Assembly: GCA_951406725.2 (NCBI GenBank)
Contig: OX597814.1
Coordinates: 3,100,001-3,164,000, forward strand
Source of the DNA: Octopus vulgaris
Lineage: Eukaryota
DNA: 64,000 bases
Direction: 5' to 3'
Shown: positions 971-63,502 of the stretch, in pieces
Numbering within the stretch: position 1 is the stretch's first letter
How the letters are laid out: each line of letters starts with the position of its first letter
Made by a program: the position numbers and the translations under genes
Notes under the pieces: model-generated
Seen by the model: only the letters and a program-made list of their open reading frames with translations
The model's database searches: none
Told to the model about the DNA's origin: nothing

Positions 971-1205
971 AGGCGGCGAGCTGGCAGAAACGTTAGCGCG
1001 CCGGGCGAAATGCTGTAGCGGTATTTCGTCTGTCGTTACGTACTAAGTTCAAATTCCGCCGAAGTCGACTTTGCCTTTCATCCTTTCGGGGTCGATTAAA
1101 ATAAGTACCAGTTACGCACTGGGGTCGATATAATCGACTTAATCCGTTTGGCTGTCCTTTTTTTGTCCTCTCTGTGTTTAGCCCTTTGTGGGTAGTAAAG
1201 AAATA
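971..1205 (+). mobile_element. tRNA-derived SINE family A, full length with TSD
   Basis: Head with A-box-like TGGCAGAAACGTT and B-box GTTCAAATTCC, body gcctttcatcctttcggggtcgat, tail aaagaaata. Flanked by ggtgaacatacttttca (954-970) and ggtgaacaaaattttca (1206-1222). Confidence 0.9.
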
Positions 1206-1601: not shown

Positions 1602-1781
1602 ATTCGTCTGTCGATACGTTCTGAGTTCAAATTCCGCCGAGGTCCACTTTGCCTTTCATCCTTTCGTGGTCGATAAATAAAGTACCGGTTACGCACTGGG
1701 GTCGATGTAATCGTCTTAATCCGTTTGTCTGTCCTTGTTTCTCCCCTCTATGTTTAGCTCCTTGTGGGCAATACAGAAATA
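1602..1781 (+). mobile_element. SINE family A, 5'-truncated
   Basis: Matches the family A body and tail from ttcgtctg onward. Confidence 0.85.
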
Positions 1782-2843: not shown

Positions 2844-3002
2844 ATCAAAGGTGTGTTGCTGTTACTAGTAAAGCCAGCAACAACAATACATTGGAATGAC
2901 AAAAACAACAAAAATGCCAACGCAAACACACAGACATGCACTCACATATACACACACATGCATATATGCACACATACATGTACACATACGTATATATACA
3001 TA

Positions 3003-3780
3003 TAGGTGAACTGGCAGAACCGTTAGCACGCCGGGCGAAGTGCGTAGCCGTATTTCGTCTGTCGTTACGTTCTGAGTTCAAATTCCGTCAAGGTCGACTT
3101 TGCTTATCATCTTTTCGGGGTCGATAAATTAAGTACCAGTTACGCACTGGGGTCGATGCAATCGACTTAATCCGTTTGTCTGTCCTTGTTTGTCCCCTCT
3201 CTGTTTAGTCCTTTGTGGGTAATAAAGAAATAGGTATTTCGTTTGCCGCTACGTTCTGAGTTCAAATTCCACCCAGGTCGACTTTGCCTGTCATCCTTTC
3301 GGGGTCGATAAATTAAGTACCAGTTACGCACTGGGGTCGATATAATCGACTTAATCCGTTTGTCTGTCCTTGTTTGTCCCCTCTCTGTTTAGTCCTTTGT
3401 GGGTAGTAAAGAAATAGGTATTTCGTCTGCCGCTACGTTCTGAGTTCAAATTCCGCCCAGGTCGACTTTCTGTCATCCTTTCGGGGTCTATAAATTAAGT
3501 ACCAGTTACGCACTGGGGTCGATGCAATCGACTTAATCCATTTGTCTGTCCTTGTTTATCCCCTCTATGTTTAGCCCCTTTGTGGGTAGTTAAGAAATAG
3601 GTATTTCGTTTGCCGCTACGTTCTGAGTTCAAATTCCGCCCAGGTCGACTTTGCCTGTCATCCTTTCGGGGTCTATAAATTAAGTACCAGTTACGCACTG
3701 GGGTCGATGCAATCGACTTAATCCGTTTGTCTGTCCTTGTTTATCCCCTCTATGTATGTTTAGCCCCTTGTGGGTTGTAA

Positions 3781-3783
<3 letters not shown>
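3003..3783 (+). mobile_element. SINE family A tandem tetramer (one head-bearing unit plus three units of about 180 bp)
   Basis: Units restart near 3234, 3417 and 3600 at the junction aagaaata|ggtatttcgt. Confidence 0.92.
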
Positions 3784-3849
<66 letters not shown>

Positions 3850-12152: not shown

Positions 12153-13117
12153 TCTCATCTCACTCTATATAAACGGCAGTTTGTCTGTCTGTGTGTCTGT
12201 GTGTCTATCAGGTTGTACCCTCACCCTGACTACGGCTTTCAACCGATTCTGATGAAACTTGACACACACATAGCCCAATGTCATAATTCAAAACTAACGC
12301 AGCGAAAATTTTGAAAAGTTCCCCAGTTCTGAAAAAAAAACGATAAATTCGACATGGGGTCGAGAATCAGAAACACAAACCACAGACTGTCTAGGGGACG
12401 CAACTCGACCTTTTTAACTTTCAACTCCATCAATATCCAGCTACTTGAAGCTATTCCTGGTGATGTCCACGTCAACAAATCTATTGATAGGACAGCAGAC
12501 CCCGCCGAGCTTGCCGATTATCCTGTTGAATTCCTGAATTCACTTGAACCGCCAGGCCTGCCGCCACACATCCTGAAGTTAAAAGTCAGTGCGCCCATTA
12601 TGCTCATCAGGAATTTGGTTCCAGCTAAACAGTGCAACGGCACACGTCTGGTTGTGAAACATTTGCCACCACATTTAATAACGGCCACAATACTTACCAG
12701 TTGTGGGAAGAGAAAGGACGTCTTCATTCCACGCATGCACCTTCAACCGTCGGGCGCTGACCTACCAATCCACTTTAGGCGTTCTCAGTTTCCTGTTAAA
12801 CTCTGCTTCGCAATGTCCATCAATAAATCCCAAGGCCAAATGCTACAAGTCGCTGGGTTACATTTGGGCGAACAGTGCTTCGCCCACGGTCAACTCTACG
12901 TGGGCTGTTCACGCGTTGCGAGGCGCAATGATGTTTTCATGTTTTCGCCCAAAGGGACAGCTAGGAACATCGTATACACAGAAGTATTCGAGTGAAGAGA
13001 AGACATTGCAACCTACACATGCGCCTGCGTTCCCTAGAGGGAATGGACTAGATTGGGATTAGTCGTTGCCTACTAGGGGCTCTTACATACCCGGGCAATG
13101 CCGGGCTATGCTGCTAG
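12153..13117 (+). mobile_element. Non-autonomous Helitron retaining the C-terminal part of the RepHel PIF1-like helicase
   Basis: 5' TC after an A (exact start approximate). 3' GC hairpin cccgggcaatgccggg and CTAG (13114-17) followed by T. Confidence 0.9.
12354..12995 (+). pseudogene. Helitron PIF1-like helicase C-terminal ORF fragment (213 aa)
   Basis: Contains YPVEFLNSLEPPGLPPHILKLK, CNGTRL, RRSQFPVKLCFAMSINKSQGQ and HGQLYVGCSRV. Rep domain and helicase motif I are absent. Confidence 0.9.
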
Positions 13118-15026: not shown

Positions 15027-15179
15027 TTTTCTTTAACGATGGCTGATAATCAGTGCTACAGGATGTAAAGTAAGTAGTCCATATTTTTTATCGGTTAATC
15101 TTTAACCGTTATCACTCAGATAAGTCAAGTTAAAATTCTTTTGCAATGTTATAAATTAAAAAGGCGAGCTTTTTAAAAA

Positions 15180-15660
15180 GGGTCGATAAATTAAGTACCA
15201 GTTACATACTGAGGTCGATCTAATCGACTGGCCCCTCCCCCAAAAATTTCGGCCCTTTTACCTAGAATAGAAAAGAATATTATGAAATAAAAAGGCGGTG
15301 AGCTGGCAGAATCGTTAGCAAGCCGAGCGAAATGCTTAACGGTATTTCGTCTTCAGTTACGTTCTGAGTTCGAATTCCACCGAGGTCGACTTTGCCTTTC
15401 ATCCTTTCGGGGACGATAAATAAAGTACCAGTTTCGCACTGGGGTCGATGTAATCGACTTAATCGTTTGTCTGTCCTTGTTTGTCCTCTCTGTGTTTAGC
15501 CCTTTGTAGGTAGTAAAGAAATAGGTATTTCGTCTGTCTTTACGTTCTGAGTTCAAATTCCGCCGAGGTAGACTTTGCCTTTCATCCTTTCGGGGGTCGA
15601 TAAATTAAGTATCAGTTGCGTATTGGGGCCGATGTAATCGACTGCCCCCTCCCCAAAATA
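15180..15660 (+). mobile_element. SINE family A cluster (fragment, full unit 15292-15522, and a second unit with a variant tail)
   Basis: Junction aaagaaata|ggtatttcgtc near 15523. Confidence 0.85.
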
Positions 15661-15898
15661 TTACCAGAAAATATTCTGAATTAAAAAGTACTAAAATACA
15701 ATCCACAGACATTCAACTGTTTATTCCGCCATCTGGTGTCGAGTTTTGAAAAAGGCGGAAATTGTGAAGAAAGAACCCCTGCTGTATAAAGTACTTAAGG
15801 GACTTCAGTTGGGGAGATGGCCCTTCTCTATAATTGGCTATATGTTTGTTTAATTAGGTCTGAAATATGTCAACTATCAGTGTGTTGGTATGTGAGCA

Positions 15899-17445: not shown

Positions 17446-18855
17446 TTGCTTGGCATCATTTCTGTCTCGGGAGACAATGGAGTTGCGCATAAAGTAGTCT
17501 AGTCCGGCTTTTATATTTCATGTCCTGATACATTTCCTGCTGTGGCTGTGTAGTCCTATCCTGGACAAACACTCCCTCTGGCAGGTACCGCAAATGTAGC
17601 GAAGACTGTTCCTGGCTGGTTGTAATGCCATAGTCTCTTGTTGACGTCTCTTCTTTTCTTTCCATTTCTCCTCTCTCTCTCTGTCACTCCTTTGTATTCC
17701 CTCTTTTACGGTACGTCGCCATACTCCACGGTTGCCGGCAACTGCCTCCCAACCGCTAATATTGATGTTGCAGACCTTCATGTCCCTTTTGCAAACATCC
17801 TTGTAACGTAAGATCGGTCTACCCACAGACCTAGTACCCCTAGCAAGCTCTCCGTAGAGTATGTCCTTGGGGATTCTGCCATCTTTCATACGGCTAACAT
17901 GCCCAAGCCATCTCATGCGTCTTTGTGTGAGGAGTGCAAACATGCTTGGTATTCCTGCTTGCCTGAGGACATCTTTGTTGGGGATATGATTCTGCCATTT
18001 GATGCGGAGGATTTTTCGGAGGCAGCGCAGGTGAAAGATGTTTAGGCGACGCTCTTGGCGTGTGTATAGCGTCCAGGTCTCACTTCCATAGAGTAGAGTG
18101 CTGAGTACACATGCCTGGTAGATCTTCACTTTCGTGGTCTTGGTCAGCTTATTGTTGTTCCAAGCCCGTTTGGAGAGTTGGGCCATCGCAGCAGCTGCCT
18201 TGCCAATGCGTATATTGAGCTCAGCGTCAAGGGATAGGTTGTAGGTGACGGTAGAGCCCAGATAGGTAAACTTCTCCACCTCTTGTAATCTGTGGTCTCC
18301 AATATGTATGTTTGGGATGTCCGATGTAGCCTGGCCCATGATGTTGGTCTTCTTAAGGCTGATAGCTAAGCCAAAGTCGTTACATGCTTGCTCAAAACAG
18401 TTAATGAGCCTTTGGAGGGCTTCTTCTGTGTGTGTTACCAGAGCGGCATCATCAGCAAATAACATCTCCTTGATCAGGACGTTTCTGATTTTGGTCTTGG
18501 CATGCAGGCGCGAGAGATTGAAGAGTTTCCCGTCACTTCTACTGTGCAGAAACACTCCATCATCTGATGTCTGAAAGGCATGTGAAAGTAAGAGCGAGAA
18601 GAAGATGCCAAACAATGTAGGAGCGAGGACACAACCTTGCTTTACCCCGTTTTTTATTTGGAAGGCGGCTGATGTTGAACCGTTGTGCTGTATGGTGCCT
18701 TGCATGTCATCATGGAAAGACTTGATGATCCTCAGCAGCTTTGGTAGACATCCGATTTTTTGGAGCAGGATGAAGAGGCCTGTTCTGCTTACCGAGTCAA
18801 AAGCCTTTGTTAGATCAATGAAGGCCATATATAATGGCATTTTCTGCTCTCTGGA
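17442..18855 (-). mobile_element. 5'-truncated RTE-clade (BovB-like) LINE with a stop-free RT/C-terminal frame of about 445 aa
   Basis: [48 protein letters not shown] and a C-terminal CxxC...H..KC motif. Short 3' UTR. Inserted in (TA)n. The N-terminus of ORF 17518-18969 is microsatellite. Confidence 0.95.
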
Positions 18856-18857
18856 CA

Positions 18858-18926
<69 letters not shown>

Positions 18927-19115
18927 ATATGTGTGTGTGTGATGTGTGTGTGTTTATGTATATATACATTTTTATTTATGTATATATATATATATATATA
19001 CATTGTTGTATTTGGGGATGGTCAAGTTGCCAGTTTAGCCAATAAAACACACGCACAATATATTTGGTGTTAATTTGCTTCAGCATTATTCTATTTTTTA
19101 CATTAATCGTATTTC

Positions 19116-20974: not shown

Positions 20975-22424
20975 TTTGGATTCTCTGCTCTATGAATTCT
21001 ATGTATTCATGCCAGATTTGTTCTGTGACCTCTTGGCAGACGTCTACCATAACTGGTAACAGAAGGGGGAGAATTCCTACTGCTGTTAGCCGGGTTGTGG
21101 TGACAATGCTGAAGAAGGACGCCGACAATGGGAATGCAGTAAGGAAGTTTTGGCCCGTAACTCTACTAAGCACAGAGTTTAAGATTTTCGCTATAGGCGC
21201 AGGAGTGGCTGTGTGGTATGTAGCTTGTTTACCAACCACATGGTTCCGGGTTCAGTCCCACTGCGTGGCACCTTGGGCAAGTGTCTTCTACTATAGCCTC
21301 GGGCCGACCAAAACTTTGTGAGTGGATTTGGTAGACGGAAACTGAAAAGAAGCCCGTCGTATATATGTGTATATAAATATGCGTGTCTGTGTTTGTGTGT
21401 CTGTGTTTCTCCCCCTAGCATTGCTTGACAACCGATGCTGGTGTGTTTATGTCCTCGTTACTTAGCGGTTCGGCAAAAGATACCGATAGAATAAGTACTG
21501 GGCTTACAAAAGAATAAGTCCCGGGGTCGAGTTGCTCGATTAAAGGCAGTGCTCCAGCATGGCTGCAGTCAAATGACTGAAACAAGTAAAAGAGAAAAGA
21601 GAGAGAGTGTGTGAGCGGAAACATTGGCGCTTGTCGTCGGTAGCCTGGTCGGGGAAACGCGAATGTGTACAATCCCGAACAGGTCTATCCACGACAACCT
21701 CCATCTAACACGATATTTCGTAAAGAGGGCTGGGACCAAAGTTAGGATTCGGGGTGCTCTGATCAATTTGGATCAATTGGAAACGTTCGATAGGGTCGAC
21801 CATCGCTACTTGGAAACCGTCCTGAAAGCAGGCGGTTCCGGGCCACGTTTTCAGAGGCTGGATTGCTGCAATGCCAGCAGCACCTGCTCAGTGGTCAAAG
21901 TAAACGGTCACCTATCGGAACCGTTTAGCTTCGCTCGCTCGGTCCATTACGTCACCTATTCTGTACGTATTGGCACTCGGGCCACTGCTACGAAAGTTGG
22001 AACAGTTAAGGGGCATCCTTAACTGGAACATTGAAGGGCAGTGCCAGCGTACACGGACGATGTCACCGTTATGGTATCGGACACCTTCGAAGTGGAGACG
22101 GTCAGCACAGTCCTAAAGGAATATGAGTCGGTTGCAAGGGCTAAAATCCACGCTAACATCTGTGAATTTGCGGTTGAGTTCCTGGAGAGGAGAGGTCGAT
22201 GCAACCGGACAGCGTTGTCGGACGCTGGATTGACGGACCAGTTAAACTGCTCAGAAACTAGTCTGGTCTCCACCTCCAGGTGAATAAGAACAGGGACGAG
22301 GTGACGAACAAGGGTGGGGGGCTAGTTTTACCCAGAAATGGGATTGATAGGAAGTTGTCCCTGAATGTTCGGTGGTGAATGCCTACATCGCCTCTATTAT
22401 AATTTATCGACTGACCTTCACGCC

Positions 22425-22425
<1 letters not shown>
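20975..22425 (+). mobile_element. Decayed L1/Tx1-clade LINE RT region, interrupted by a SINE
   Basis: YEFY.., FWPVTLLSTEFKIFA, RSIHDNL, LINLDQLETFDRVDHRYL and AYTDDVTV, with frameshifts. Confidence 0.85.
21195..21603 (+). mobile_element. SINE family B, full length, nested in the Tx1 LINE
   Basis: Near-consensus family B sequence. Confidence 0.92.
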
Positions 22426-22460
<35 letters not shown>

Positions 22461-38749: not shown

Positions 38750-38983
38750 AGACGGCGAGCTGGCAGAATCTTTAACAGGCCGAGCGAAATACTTAGCGGT
38801 ATTTCGTCTGCCACTACGTTCTGAGTTCAAACTCCGCCGACGTCGACTTTGCCTTTCATCCCTTCGGGGTCGATTAAGTATGTACCAGTTACGCATTGGG
38901 GTCGATGTAATCGACTTAAACCCTTTGTCTGTTCTTGTTTGTCCCCTCTATGTTTAGACCCCTTGTGGGCAATAAAGAAATAA
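38750..38983 (+). mobile_element. SINE family A, full length
   Basis: Head, body and tail present. Confidence 0.9.
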
Positions 38984-45572: not shown

Positions 45573-46054
45573 CAGAGAGAGAGAGAGAGAGAGAGAGGTT
45601 GCTAAATGGGTAAGTAGATAGATAGGTACTTATGTAGTACGGGCAGACAAGCACATACACACACAAGTAGACAGAGATACACATACATACATACATACAT
45701 ACATACATACATACATACATACATACATACATACATACATACATACATACATACATACATACATACATACATACATACATACATACATACATACATACAT
45801 ACATACATACATACACAAGCACATACGCACAAACGGACGAAAAAGAACGCAGTTCCAATAACGGACACAGTCAACATTGCAAAAGCAACGAAAATTTTGG
45901 AAGAAAAAATATAGATAATAAATGAGTGGAAATCGAACCAGTGAGTGTGTTAGGTAATAAGCCTTTAAGACGATATCACTCTCCCCAGATGCCACATAAT
46001 TTGCTTTTGCAAACCAGATACAAAAATGAAATATATGTATATTGTGTATATATA

Positions 46055-46175
46055 TTTCTTTACTACCCACAAGGAGCTAAACACAGAGAGGACAAACAAG
46101 AACAGACAAACGGATTAAGTGATTACATTGACCCCAGTGAGTAACTGGTACTTAATTTATTGACCCCGAAAGGAT
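46055..46175 (-). mobile_element. SINE family A 3' portion
   Basis: Reverse complement of the body and tail. Confidence 0.85.
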
Positions 46176-46179
46176 GAAG

Positions 46180-48732: not shown

Positions 48733-49322
48733 TAATTACTGAGGTTGTTTTTTTTTTCTTTTCTACTGATACTGTTTCATTGTTATAATCCGGGCCTCAT
48801 GTAATATTACTACGTGAGATTTAATATAGCTTTTTTCCTTTGGTGAAAAATATCCTATGTCTATACTTCTCCTGGTGTTCATATTTCCAATAACACCAAG
48901 CTTCTCCAACACAGATGTTGCCTCAAAGATGTGAAACTTTAGGAAATGACGTCTTCCCTATTGCTCAGTTGGCGCTCATTTTCAACTGAAAAGACTGGAA
49001 TCACTGCCTGATCCAAGATTTGAAACCACGACGTTACGATTGTGGGCTGAACATTCTAACCACAAGAACACCCGTCTTCACCAAATAGGCGATCTCAATT
49101 CCATGCAGTACAACTCGAAACATTCACTTCATTTTCTTTCATCACCTCAATAATATCTTCACCAAACTGATCATCAATCAATCAATCAATCAATGATTAT
49201 CAATCGTTTCAGTCTTGTGTGTCTTGGAGGACCTACAAAACCAGTAGAAACCAAACCAGCTGACCTAAAGCAAAATGAACAGCAGGGGCAGCATTGTATA
49301 AATGACGAATGTGTTGTTATTT

Positions 49323-49913
49323 AGGCGGCGAGCTGGCAGAAACGTTAGCCCGCCGGGCGAAATGCGTAGCCGTATTTCGTCTGCCATTACGTTCTGAGTT
49401 CAAATTCCACCGAGGTCGACTTTGCCTTTCATCCTTTCGGGGTCGATAAATTAAGTACCAGTTACGCACTGGGGTCGATATAATCGATTTAATCCGTTTA
49501 CCTGTCCTTGTTTGTCCCCTCTGTGTTTACCCCTTGGGTTGTAAAGAAATACGTATTTCGTCTGCCGCTACGTTCTGAGTTCAAATTCCGCCGAGGTCGA
49601 CTTTGTCATCCTTTCGGGGTCGATAAATTAAGTACCAGTTTTGCACTGGTGTCGATATAATCGACTTGATCCATTTGTCTGTCCTTGTTTGTCCCCTCTG
49701 TGTTTAGCCCCTTGGGTAGTAAAGAAATAGGTATTTCGTCTGCCGCTACGTTCTGAGTTCAAATTCCGCCGAGGTCGACTTTGCCTTTCATCCTTTCGGG
49801 GTCGATAAATTAAGTACCAGTTACGCACTGGGATCGATATAATCGACTTAATCTGTTTGTCTATCCTTGTTTGTCCTCTCTGTGTTTAGCCCCTTGTGGG
49901 TAGTAAAGAAATA
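49323..49913 (+). mobile_element. SINE family A tandem trimer inside a single 16-bp TSD
   Basis: Units restart near 49552 and 49730. TSD gaatgtgttgttattt at 49307-49322 and 49914-49929. Confidence 0.93.
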
Positions 49914-50661
49914 GAATGTGTTGTTATTTCTCACGCACACCACTTGAACATTGGTCGGGGGTCATGAGTCAAACCCCGACTCATGAAAGATCCATTCTCA
50001 AAGCTGCATCATTTCCATTTACATCTTATCATCAACTTTCGAACTGAAGGTTCGTGGCCTACTCATTAGGCTGTAGTGCTCACGAGCGGTCACGGTTTCG
50101 ATTTCCTAACCGGTCAGTGCATTGTATTCTTGAGCAAAACACTTCTTTTCACGTTGCCGCAGTCGGCTCAGCTGTAAATTGGCCATGGAGAGTCATCCCA
50201 TTCAGGGACACTGTCGTGATGTCGCTCACTTAGACGCCATGGAAGTCTGATGACTCTGGCGCTATTTACTTCTTGCTCTTATCGACTTTCGAAAACAAAG
50301 AGGAAACGAAACCCTAACTTGTGTCATAGCTGTCTGCGTACATATCTTGGTACTATACGGTCGTAACGATGCTGTTGAAGGTCATATTATGTATTATCAA
50401 TAAACTAGTCTTACGCATCATATGACGGGTATCTTTGGACGTATATATTTGCCACCCTGGGTAATATCAGAAAATATGGGTATACATTCGATAAGTATAA
50501 TTTAGCATTTATTAAACTGTTTGGTGCTAAGACAAAATGATGAAATGAATATTAATTTTCAAGCGAAAAACATTTATTACCTTAAAATGAAATTAGATAA
50601 AACAATTTGCTCTTTTTTGTATATTTGCAATAAATAAATGCCAATTTATTTTATATATTTT

Positions 50662-50801: not shown

Positions 50802-50838
<37 letters not shown>

Positions 50839-51040
50839 CTTTACTACCCACAAGGGGCTAACCACAGAGGGGACAAACAAGGACAGACAAACGGATTAAG
50901 TCGATTATATCGACCCCGAAAGGATGAAAGGCAAAGTTGACCTCGGCGAAATTTGAACGCAGAACGTCACGGCAGACGAAATACGGCTACGCATTTCACC
51001 CGGCGTGCTAACGTTTCTGCCAGCACACACACACACACAC

Positions 51041-55774: not shown

Positions 55775-55990
55775 TAGATAGATAGATAGATAGATAGATG
55801 CTTAGCGGTATTTCGTCTGCCGTTACGTTCTGAGTTCAAATTCCGTCGAGATCGACTTTGCCTTTCATTCTTTCGGGATCGATAAATAAAGTACCAGTCT
55901 CGCACTGGAGTCGATGTAATCGACTTAATCCGTTTGTCTGTCCTTGTTTGTCCCCTCTACGTTTAACCCCTTGTGGGCAATAAAGAAATA
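55585..55990 (+). mobile_element. SINE B 5' half (55585-55740), microsatellite, then 5'-truncated SINE A (55798-55990)
   Basis: Direct matches. The A copy begins at its head hairpin (atgcttagcggtatttcg). Confidence 0.88.
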
Positions 55991-56701: not shown

Positions 56702-58265
<1,564 letters not shown>

Positions 58266-58413
58266 ACACACACACACACACGCACACACGCACGCACGCA
58301 CACTCACACACATATAAGAACTCAAATTAGGTAATCAACCTTTTTTACAAACGCATGGAATAACTATAGATTCCATTTTGAATATATTTGCACGTATCGA
58401 CATACAAAATATA

Positions 58414-59060
58414 TTGGGTTGCCAACTAAGTTCCCGCCGTTTTTTTTTTTAATTTTGGAATTTATTGCGTTTTTAAATTTTAGAATCTATTTTTTGTGCG
58501 AATTCTATTTTTGAATCAATTTTGCTTTGTTTTGTTTTTTGTTTTTTTTTAGTTGATTCTTGTTTATTTTCAGATCATTAAAATGGAATGTCAAAAAAAC
58601 GAGTATTTTTGACGCCTCCTTGTTTTTTGCTTTTAATCAAGGTTCTAAGGCCGCAAAAGCTGCTCGCGACATTTGTGCTGTGTATGAAGAGGGTGCCATA
58701 GCTGAAAGAACCGCTCCTAATTGGTATGCCAAGTTCAAAAATGGAAATTTTGACCTCAAAGACGCACCTCGTTCTGGCCGTCCAGTTGAGTTCGATGAAG
58801 AGCGATTAAACCAACTTTTGCACAAAAATTCTCGTCAAGCGACAAGGGAACTGGCAGAGAAAATGGAATGCTCCCACACTGCTATAGAGAAGCATCTTCA
58901 CTCGATGGGAAAGGTTCAGAAGTATGGAGCATGTTTTAAATTACAACAACAAAAATCAACGAGCTGCGACTATTCAAGAGAAAATACCTAATCGGCAGCA
59001 TTGAGTTCTTCTGCTGCACGACAACGCCCGCCCTCATATCACAGTATGACCAAGGAAGCG
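58414..59060 (+). mobile_element. mariner remnant (5' TIR, HTH and part of the catalytic domain)
   Basis: TA-TTGGGTTGCCAACTAAG end. Translates to AARDICAVYEEGAIAERTAPNWYAKFKNGNFDLKDAPRSGRP and LLHDNARPH. Confidence 0.85.
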
Positions 59061-61963: not shown

Positions 61964-62195
61964 AGCGGCGAGCTGGCAGAACCGTTAGCACGTCAGGCGA
62001 AATGCTTAGCGGTATTTCGGCTGCCGTTACGTTCTGAGTTCAAATTCCGCCGAGGTCGACTTTGCCTTTCATCCTTTCGGGGTCGATAAATTAAGTACCA
62101 GTTACGCACTGGGGTCGATGTAATCGACTTAATACCTATGTTTGTCCATGTTTGTCCTCTCTATGTTTAGCCCCCTTGTGGGTAGTAAAGAAATA
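61964..62195 (+). mobile_element. SINE family A, full length with a perfect 16-bp TSD
   Basis: ggtattgttgaaaatc at 61948-61963 and 62196-62211. Confidence 0.93.
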
Positions 62196-62810: not shown

Positions 62811-63150
62811 GTGCCAGTTTAGTTTTGTTGTGGTGGTCATGTAGCAGTGGGCATATACATGTTGTGGTTTGTGTTGTGTATGTGTGCTGAGTTTGTACGT
62901 GTGTGCGCGCGTACGTGTGTGTGTGTGTGTGTGTGTAGTGGAAACCTGTTATTATAAGTTGAAAATTAACTGAAAATATGGAATCGTTACGATTCTAGAT
63001 TTTCATATTTTATATAATTTATTGAATTTAAGTTCGAAATTTAGCCATCAATTGGCCTCGTCAGGGTCTGCCAATAAACAGAGGCCAACAACTAGTGAAA
63101 AATCAAAGTCAATATTTATGAGATAGATAGACAGATATGTTTCTTTATTG

Positions 63151-63430
63151 GCCACACAGGGCTGAACACAGAGGGAACAAAATACAAAGTAGAACTTTTC
63201 TTTTTGAGAAGAATAAAGGGAAAAAAAGAAAAAAGGGTGGGGTAGAATTTCAATCAAAAGGGATCATGGAAAAAAAAGGGCCGATCAATAGGTATCGTTA
63301 GCCACACAGGGCCGAAGACAGAGGGGCCAAAATGCAATGTAGAACTTTTCTTTTTGAAAAAAGAAAAAAAGGGGAAAAATATAATTTCGATCAAAAGGGA
63401 TCATGAAAAAAAAAGAGTCGATCGAGAGGG
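63151..63430. repeat. Diverged tandem duplication of about 150 bp
   Basis: gccacacagggc..gtagaacttttctttttga..tcaaaagggatcatg at 63151 and 63301. Confidence 0.75.
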
Positions 63431-63502
63431 ATCGTGTATCACAGAAAATATTATAAATATTACAAAAGGTAGAAAGATAGATAGATAGATAGACAGACAA
63501 AC

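What the first reader, a model, noticed from the sequence alone, without database searches (positions are those of the whole stretch)
3003..3783. SINE multimers always rejoined at the same hairpin loop
Seen: three independent loci (3003 tetramer, 15292 dimer, 49323 trimer) have one complete SINE head followed by ~180-bp units. Each unit restarts at the same point, 3'-end aagaaata joined to (g/c)gtatttcgt. That point is in the loop of the head hairpin GGCGAAATGC-ttagcg-GTATTTCGTC. The 5'-truncated monomers at 1602 and 55798 also begin at or near this hairpin. Inference: a systematic mechanism. Options are RT stalling or loop cleavage with template jumping, rolling-circle reverse transcription of a circularised SINE RNA, or self-targeted insertion; two clear TSDs here also begin GGT.
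Basis: partly seen in the sequence, partly recalled or inferred. Interest (0 to 1): 0.7.

Follow-up and report, generated by a model that had tools for sequence, protein, structure and literature searches.

The report
Octopus SINE multimers with fixed junction
A common octopus jumping element (a SINE) often occurs as head-to-tail chains in which every extra unit starts at the same base, just after the loop of a hairpin in the element's head; the first join is likely made during copying from RNA, and ordinary DNA recombination likely lengthens the chains afterwards.

Summary
All 6 internal junctions in the three arrays join SINE base 231 to base 48. Base 48 is the first base of the 3' arm of a 12-bp hairpin with a 4-nt loop. 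The same joint is the best supported of 15 shown in DNA contigs of two organisms and in raw RNA reads of a third, with several kinds of downstream unit. The family occurs in Octopus bimaculoides records. Corrections: the truncated monomers start at about 53 and 40, not 48. Junctions within one array are not independent. No ribozyme was found. Rolling-circle copying is disfavoured: units of one array come from different subfamilies. Self-insertion leaves no internal target-site duplication, and the head goes with the first unit. New: the SINE's last six bases are complementary to bases 50-55, and only fragments starting at about 46-52 are predicted to dock on the 3' end. Best reading (0.45): joining at the RNA or reverse-transcription step, insertion as one unit, then unequal exchange. 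Similar tandem SINEs are known in a clam and in reptiles. The single-base junction was not found in print.

The parts
3005..3232 (+). Array A unit 1: headed SINE (consensus 4-231), head type 43G/48C
3012..3022 (+). A-box-like Pol III promoter element (only the headed unit has it)
   Evidence: read by eye; box consensus recalled
3033..3060 (+). Head hairpin, 12 bp: 5' arm 3033-3044, loop 3045-3048, 3' arm 3049-3060; base 48 = 3049
3074..3086 (+). B-box-like element (kept in every unit)
   Evidence: read by eye; box consensus recalled
3233..3416 (+). Array A unit 2 (48-231); mosaic: 5' half like A3/A4, 3' half like A1
   Evidence: 64-140 differs from A3/A4 at 2 and from A1 at 7 of 75-77; 141-231 differs from A1 at 3 and from A3/A4 at 7-8 of 91
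3417..3599 (+). Array A unit 3 (48-231)
3600..3787 (+). Array A unit 4 (48-231), runs into (AT)n
15161..15275 (+). Internally deleted SINE of the second 3'-end subfamily, directly upstream of array B
15276..15292 (+). Likely upstream TSD of dimer B (17 nt, 2 mismatches to 15670-15686; a third worn copy at 15145-15160)
   Evidence: by eye; the automatic search found 10 nt with 1 mismatch for B
15293..15523 (+). Array B unit 1: full SINE
15524..15669 (+). Array B unit 2: starts at base 48, 3' end of the second subfamily
49307..49322 (+). Upstream TSD of trimer C (16 of 16 identical to 49914-49929)
49323..49551 (+). Array C unit 1: full SINE, head type 43G/48C
49552..49729 (+). Array C unit 2: starts at base 48 with C
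49730..49913 (+). Array C unit 3: starts at base 48 with G
971..1205 (+). Full monomer with 17-nt TSD (2 mismatches) starting GGT
61964..62195 (+). Full monomer with 16-nt perfect TSD starting GGTATT; reference used for laying reads
1603..1781 (+). 5'-truncated monomer starting at about base 53
55799..55990 (+). 5'-truncated monomer starting at about base 40
38750..38982 (+). Full monomer, older tail type, no clear TSD
46053..46177 (-). 5'-truncated monomer starting at about base 105
50834..51023 (-). Monomer from about base 10, internal deletion, head type 43G/48C

Best explanation
These are multimers of a 231-nt octopus SINE in which a full unit is joined to head-less units starting at base 48, and the first join is likely made at the RNA or reverse-transcription step, likely inserted as one piece and likely lengthened later by unequal DNA exchange. 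Steps: (1) Inferred: some SINE RNAs end at base 48 because they are cut after C47, at the loop of the head hairpin. (2) Predicted by folding: loss of the 5' arm frees the 3' arm, on which the last six bases of a SINE RNA can dock, placing base 231 two bases from base 48. (3) Inferred: the LINE reverse transcriptase copies the head-less RNA, then re-primes at base 231 of a full RNA (template jump), or the two RNAs are ligated first. (4) Shown for C, likely for B: one TSD flanks the whole array. (5) Inferred: the consensus has no run of four T, so arrays can be read through and re-mobilised as units. (6) Shown as a mosaic pattern in A: misaligned exchange adds units and copies the junction.
For: Exact 231-to-48 join in 6 of 6 junctions. 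It is the top joint of 15 displayed in X1 (30 contigs) and X3 (36 contigs), and has 49 reads from 33 starts in RNA run X23, against a mean depth of about 277 at the 3' end. The join does not depend on the base at 48 (G or C; C2, and the CGC row) and occurs with several downstream types. Bases 48-63 of upstream and downstream units differ at 3 (A1/A2), 4 (B1/B2), 1 and 1 of 16. That is the range of unrelated heads (1-4), whereas true TSDs here differ at 0, 0 and 2. The linked 43G/48C head type sits with A1 while A2-A4 start with G, so the head belongs to the first unit. The reverse complement of the last 6 bases occurs once in the consensus, at 50-55; 4 of 221 start positions would qualify. In head-less units the pairing has predicted probability 0.49-0.86. 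Over 149 possible start points, end-to-end docking above 0.3 occurs only at 47-51 in 3 of 4 copies. Precedents: template jumping and head-to-tail products of R2 proteins (PMC11371274, passages); RtcB ligation before retrotransposition of U6/L1 (PMC6789731, abstract); tRNA halves and Alu in L1 chimeras (PMC11838501, passages).
Against: No cut RNA was seen: run X23 shows no place where many molecules begin or end (table 6; weak test: unstranded 150-nt reads, another organism, 6 in 100 of the run read). None of 4 truncated monomers starts at 48, though cut RNA should leave some. The exact 231 end is most simply a target-primed start, and no terminator defines an RNA end there. Dispersed TSDs resemble the junction (GGT, GGTATT, G; 4 invariant columns of 10, reached by 1555 of 200000 random triples), which favours self-targeting. 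Docking is weak (-3.6 against -11 to -15 kcal/mol for the native arm) and fails for copy B1 (0 of 149 starts above 0.3). The junction hairpin is no more stable than shuffles (z 0.36 and 0.85). The partner LINE is not identified. Only three loci could be read in full.
Confidence: 0.45

Rival explanations
1. Self-targeted insertion: the LINE endonuclease nicks an existing SINE at 47|48, a new copy is primed there, and its cDNA anneals to the homologous head upstream, leaving head + unit + unit with no visible scar.
For: Explains the exact 231 end and old or different downstream subfamilies. The three TSD sites read TGAY|G. A matrix built from them alone ranks 47|48 4th of 444 SINE positions in the best window. 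R2 cDNA with upstream homology gives over 80% precise junctions and can carry variants in (PMC3774820, passages). C1 and C2 both have C48.
Against: The rank falls to 7, 7, 23 and 35 in four other windows. C48 heads score poorly, and 1.4% of window positions score as well as site 48. No retained 48-63 duplication in A or B, and the head tracks the first unit. The 3'-most unit C3 is the least diverged (6 differences against 15 and 14). No head+TSD+full-element joint among the 15 displayed (1081 hidden).
Confidence: 0.25
2. A few ancestral dimers arose by rare accidents and spread as multimeric master genes; template switching between homologous RNAs and gene conversion swapped in other downstream units. 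No recurring cut at 48 is needed.
For: A perfect TSD flanks all of C. A1 and C1 share the 43G/48C head. 64C is in 5 of 6 head-less units against 1 of 9 others (Fisher p 0.011 by unit). Read-through RNA continuing GGUAUU past 231 would explain TSDs that begin G, GGT or GGTATT.
Against: Counted by array, the 64C signal is 2 of 3 against about 29% in contigs (p 0.20). Downstream units carry subfamily markers at 48 itself or within 10-15 bases of the junction (B2; rows), so swaps would have to end in that short stretch each time.
Confidence: 0.18
3. Rolling-circle reverse transcription of a 184-nt circular SINE RNA (48-231).
For: The head-less unit's two ends are predicted to dock, a geometry suited to ligation. 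The 49 RNA reads across the joint would also come from a circle. DNA contigs under the same species label (X15) list no such joint.
Against: A circle has no head, yet 3 of 3 arrays begin with one. B mixes subfamilies and C's units differ at shared subfamily sites. No hammerhead core on the plus strand, no HDV-like descriptor hit at a unit start, no Rfam ribozyme. No splice signals at the junction. X15 has about 200-fold less depth at the 3' end than X1, and its depth runs onto the next flank letters in the same ratio (0.37 against 0.38), so the junction is probably in its DNA too (inference).
Confidence: 0.07
4. Purely DNA-level duplication (slippage or break repair at the hairpin), or an assembly artefact.
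For: A2 is a clear recombination mosaic; SINE-derived tandem repeats in reptiles are ascribed to unequal recombination (PMC10702118, parts 1, 3 and 4 read).
Against: A DNA duplication has no reason to stop exactly at 231. The GAAAT microhomology between 3' end and 5' arm would join at 42, not 48 (sequence). Units differ from one another, and the joint recurs in independent runs and raw reads, which excludes an artefact.
Confidence: 0.05

Closest known systems
TSD-(SINE)n-TSD tandem SINEs of the blood clam S. broughtonii (Martelossi et al. 2024, PMC11481361; section 15 read)
   Same: [quoted passage not shown]
   Different: There the first and middle units are also tail-truncated; here every unit keeps its 3' end to the last base. 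The section read names no hairpin; the discussion passage cites unequal recombination.
SINE-derived satellites (sSat) of squamates (Vassetzky et al. 2023, PMC10702118; parts 1, 3, 4 of 5 read)
   Same: Tandem units shorter than the SINE, with one longer terminal unit that reaches the SINE end.
   Different: sSats have up to hundreds of units and tend to be subtelomeric, and short loci vary in unit limits. Here arrays are 2-4 units, interspersed, with one fixed junction.
U6/L1, Alu/L1 and tRNA-half/L1 chimeric retrotranscripts (PMC6789731 abstract; PMC11838501 passages)
   Same: Full-length Pol III RNA 5', truncated partner 3', same orientation (U6, Alu), one TSD; formed by ligation or template switch.
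   Different: There the 3' partner is variably truncated and is a LINE; here both partners are the same SINE family and the truncation is fixed to one base.
R1 tandem arrays and R2 homology-primed 5' junctions (PMC2718515, PMC3774820; passages)
   Same: Repeated insertion at one site makes head-to-tail arrays; upstream homology makes seamless joins.
   Different: R1 copies are separated by the 14-bp TSD; no such spacer here, and the target would be the SINE itself.
Octopus OK, OR1, OR2 SINEs (Ohshima and Okada 1994; paper not held; names seen in PMC4824008, PMC4758252 and a RepeatMasker table)
   Same: tRNA-type SINE in Octopus.
   Different: No sequence of these families was available, so identity is untested.

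Membership tests
SINE (SINEBase definition, PMC3531059 passage) | Short (<1 kb) interspersed repeat | tested here: met
   231 nt; 10 loci on both strands in 64 kb
SINE (SINEBase definition) | [quoted passage not shown] | tested here: met
   493,752 contigs of run X1 lie on one monomer; not a copy count, but far above 100 by inference
SINE (SINEBase definition) | At least 60% identity of the head to a tRNA, 7SL or 5S RNA | tested here: inconclusive
   ARAGORN found 0 genes; Rfam gave no tRNA match at E up to 10 on 2950-3800; A- and B-like boxes seen by eye; no direct tRNA alignment made
SINE (LINE-mobilised) | Target-site duplication | tested here: met
   16/16, 16/16 and 15/17 at 3 of 11 elements examined
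SINE (LINE-mobilised) | 3' end shared with a partner LINE | tested here: inconclusive
   No match to the 3' end of the RT-bearing LINE at 17518-18975; 84% over 43 nt to an unidentified element at 63140-63181
Octopus OR1/OR2/OK; CORE or Meta superfamily | Sequence identity to the family consensus or central domain | not testable with these tools
   Consensus sequences not found as text; one supplement file of PMC4824008 was not searched and those of SINEBase could not be read
Retrozyme / hammerhead satellite | Hammerhead ribozyme in each unit | tested here: not met
   No core motif on the plus strand of 4 regions, one isolated minus-strand hit in B; no Rfam match
HDV-like ribozyme-processed retroelement | HDV-like fold starting at the unit's first base | tested here: not met
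   A loose descriptor of my own gave hits only at other positions, not shared among copies
SINE-derived satellite (sSat) | At least four middle monomers | tested here: not met
   At most 2 middle units in the window; longer arrays elsewhere untested
R1-type tandem insertion | TSD spacer between successive copies | tested here: not met
   0 bases between 231 and 48 in 6 of 6 junctions
U6/L1-type chimeric retrotranscript | One TSD around the whole chimera | tested here: met
   Array C 16/16; array B likely; array A lies in TA repeats and cannot be judged
U6/L1-type chimeric retrotranscript | 2',3'-cyclic phosphate and 5'-OH ends joined by RtcB | not testable with these tools
   Needs RNA end chemistry

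The most novel reading that the evidence does not exclude
Octopus SINE RNA is cut by a host nuclease at one bond in its anticodon-position hairpin. The SINE's own 3' end then replaces the lost arm as a built-in splint, so that cut RNAs are rejoined, as multimers or 184-nt circles, before or during retrotransposition. This would be a break-and-rejoin cycle in a SINE that needs no ribozyme.
Probability: 0.2. Interest if true: 0.8.

Novelty: new variant of a known kind. Interest (0 to 1): 0.5.

Why it matters
SINEs make up about 11.6% of the O. vulgaris assembly (PMC13282606, main text read). Here 6 of 15 3' ends in the window, and roughly a fifth of 3'-end RNA reads in a related organism, run into one fixed base of the next unit. 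How complex SINEs and SINE-derived satellites start is open; the papers read leave it at recombination, ligation or template switching. A junction fixed to one base, across subfamilies and organisms, gives a directly testable case with thousands of likely loci. It also means repeat annotation will miscount this family.

Tried and rejected
No whole genome was held, so the genome-wide junction count could not be made directly. Pattern scans for more copies: viral contigs gave 85 chance matches, with no SINE among the loci laid as files, and then 0. Metagenome contigs gave 0, then 5 loci that share only a 32-39-nt central stretch. Genome contigs gave 0, then 1 bacterial match, not examined further. 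Ribozymes: none. Splicing or back-splicing: no GT/AG at the junctions. HDV P1 pairing of 48-54 with 79-85 considered and dropped, since no P3 forms and C48 breaks it. 64C as a marker of a single source: significant by unit, not by array. A word-index protein search with an antisense SINE frame found nothing. The HMMER search gave 17 proteins. Ten were looked up: 4 named O. bimaculoides, 2 unrelated chance hits, 4 unnamed. They were too few and too diverged to count junctions. The Atlas search on the LINE ORF gave RVT_1 clusters and no useful taxon. Supplements of PMC9115989 held no readable SINE sequence (four files not searched, two too large; one later read for 30 of 1691 rows); its transcript sequences could bear on junction counts. 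Earlier findings of this scan: none on this family. Literature searches that found no description of this junction: (open-access library only; Ohshima and Okada 1994 not held).

Full report
Setting. The window is microsatellite-rich animal DNA with LINE, helicase and mariner fragments. No whole genome was held. Antisense translations of the repeat match predicted proteins named Octopus bimaculoides (4 of 10 looked up), so the family occurs in Octopus; the window's species was not determined. The repeat is a 231-nt element found at 10 loci of the window. It has A- and B-like boxes by eye, no tRNA match by ARAGORN or Rfam, and 16-17-nt target-site duplications at 3 of 11 elements examined. Positions below are those of the window consensus.

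The observation. Arrays A (4 units), B (2) and C (3) each start with a headed unit. All 6 internal junctions join base 231 to base 48 with nothing between (0 matches in 100 shuffles). The head hairpin spans 32-59, with 12 pairs and a 4-nt loop at 44-47. It folds better than shuffles (z -3.07 for the C1 hairpin; -1.44 to -3.00 for five whole heads). Pair 43-48 is U-G in 4 heads and G-C in 3 of 7, though those three may share one origin. Base 48 is thus the first base of the 3' arm.

Beyond the window. Four public runs were laid on the monomer at 61964-62195. The joint from its 3' end back to base 48 was the best supported of the 15 displayed (1081 not shown): 30 contigs in X1, 36 in X3 (another organism), 0 in X15, and 49 raw RNA reads from 33 starts in X23. 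Mean depth at the 3' end in X23 was about 277, so roughly 18% of those reads cross the joint. Of 12 displayed rows with letters between the sides, 9 start at the 3' end; 7 of these resolve by my reading to base 48 with a different downstream type, including one starting with C, and 2 go elsewhere through TA-rich letters. X15 shares X23's species label and lists no joint. It has about 200-fold less depth at the 3' end, and its depth runs onto the following flank letters in the same ratio as X1 and X3, so I read this as a gap in detection. No pile-up of RNA starts or ends was reported. The tool warned that some joints were not counted in the three DNA runs.

What the units say. Array A is a mosaic: A2 matches A3/A4 in its 5' half and A1 in its 3' half, the pattern that unequal exchange in a dimer gives. 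Its three junctions are therefore one event. C's units differ by 5.1-8.0%, against a mean of 8.6% between young copies at other loci, and differ at shared subfamily sites; C2 looks weakly mosaic. B2 carries the 3' end of a second subfamily, abundant in all four runs. Copying one circular RNA cannot give these arrays, and a circle has no head. No hammerhead, HDV-like or Rfam ribozyme lies at the junction, and there are no splice signals.

Two serious origins. Self-targeted insertion explains the exact 231 end. The three clear insertion sites read TGAT|GGTGAA, TGAT|GGTATT and TGAC|GAATGT, near the head's TAGC|GGTATT. But a matrix from these sites ranks 47|48 4th of 444 in one window and 7th to 35th in four others, scores C48 heads poorly, and is matched by 1.4% of window positions. 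Such an insertion should also leave 48-63 duplicated and the old head in place. Instead 48-63 differs between neighbours as between unrelated heads (3, 4, 1, 1 of 16), and the 43G/48C head of A goes with A1, not with the G48 units behind it. Replacement of the head by the incoming cDNA could rescue the model, as in R2 (PMC3774820, passages), but it would be needed in most loci.

The last six bases of the SINE are the reverse complement of 50-55, the only such site in the consensus. In head-less units this pairing is predicted at 0.49-0.86. Among 149 trial start points, docking above 0.3 appears only at 47-51 in 3 of 4 copies and nowhere in the fourth. The duplex is weak (-3.6 kcal/mol) and can form only once the native arm is gone. 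A cut after C47 would be indifferent to G or C at 48 (inference). Template jumping by R2 proteins, RtcB ligation of U6 to L1, and tRNA halves in L1 chimeras are precedents. Against it: no cut RNA or head-less monomer was seen, and nothing shows an RNA ending at 231.

Amplification. The consensus has no run of four T (one search finds only private ones in A1 and C2), so a headed array could be read through and moved whole. RNA continuing past 231 into the next unit could also pair with nicked targets and explain TSDs that begin G, GGT or GGTATT. The number of independent joining events may thus be far below the number of arrays. This third reading gets 0.18 on its own and probably contributes under either origin.

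Comparison. It works like the head + (truncated unit)n tandem SINEs of the blood clam (PMC11481361, section 15) and like short squamate SINE-derived repeats (PMC10702118). It fails the tests for retrozyme, sSat and R1-type arrays. Membership in OR1, OR2, OK, CORE or Meta could not be tested. Eight literature searches found no description of this junction, in an open-access library that lacks the 1994 octopus SINE paper.

Verdict. Real, recurrent and more precise than first described; the mechanism is unresolved. RNA-step joining 0.45, self-insertion 0.25, few ancestral masters 0.18, rolling circle 0.07, DNA-only 0.05. New variant of a known kind; interest 0.5.

Noticed in passing
window 63140-63435 (-): Head-to-tail dimer (78% alike) of a T-rich element whose last 43 nt are 84% like the SINE's tail; a candidate 3' UTR of the partner LINE. 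Both units start at the same point.
   Followed up: partly
window 15145-15686: Three worn copies of a 16-17-nt AT-rich sequence frame a deleted second-subfamily SINE and dimer B, a TSD-(SINE-TSD)n layout that suggests reuse of one target site.
   Followed up: partly
reference 61965 to 62028/62031/62032: Opposite-strand joints between the SINE start and positions 65-69 (X1: 8, 9, 4 contigs; X3: 8, 14, 7). A minus-strand site at 86|85 resembling the head site would predict such joints with a 17-18-nt TSD, but they may only reflect where alignments of the second subfamily begin. Unexplained.
   Followed up: partly
reference 62128-62131 to 62027 and 61967: The far more abundant second subfamily also shows many go-back joints, with unknown letters between; it may form its own tandem arrays.
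   Followed up: no
window 17518-18975 (-): 5'-truncated LINE with an open reverse transcriptase frame (RVT_1, E 7.9e-22; RTE-like by recall); its 3' end does not match the SINE tail.
   Followed up: partly
window 21066-21190 and 21615-22430 (+): Decayed reverse-transcriptase-like frames (Tx1/L1-like by recall; no Pfam match), interrupted by another SINE family.
   Followed up: partly
window 12333-12995 (+) and 58557-58991 (+): Pif1 helicase 2B fragment (Helitron-like) and mariner transposase HTH fragment.
   Followed up: no
window 56702-57160 and 57789-58312: A duplicated block of about 450-520 bases flanks a LINE-like frame at 57147-57884 (-).
   Followed up: no
L086-L090: Five metagenome contigs hold other repeats that share only a 32-39-nt central stretch with this SINE, which suggests a conserved central domain.
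   Followed up: partly
P0002, P0003, P0004, P0015: Several annotated O. bimaculoides proteins contain antisense translations of this SINE and are probably gene-model errors or exonised SINE pieces.
   Followed up: no
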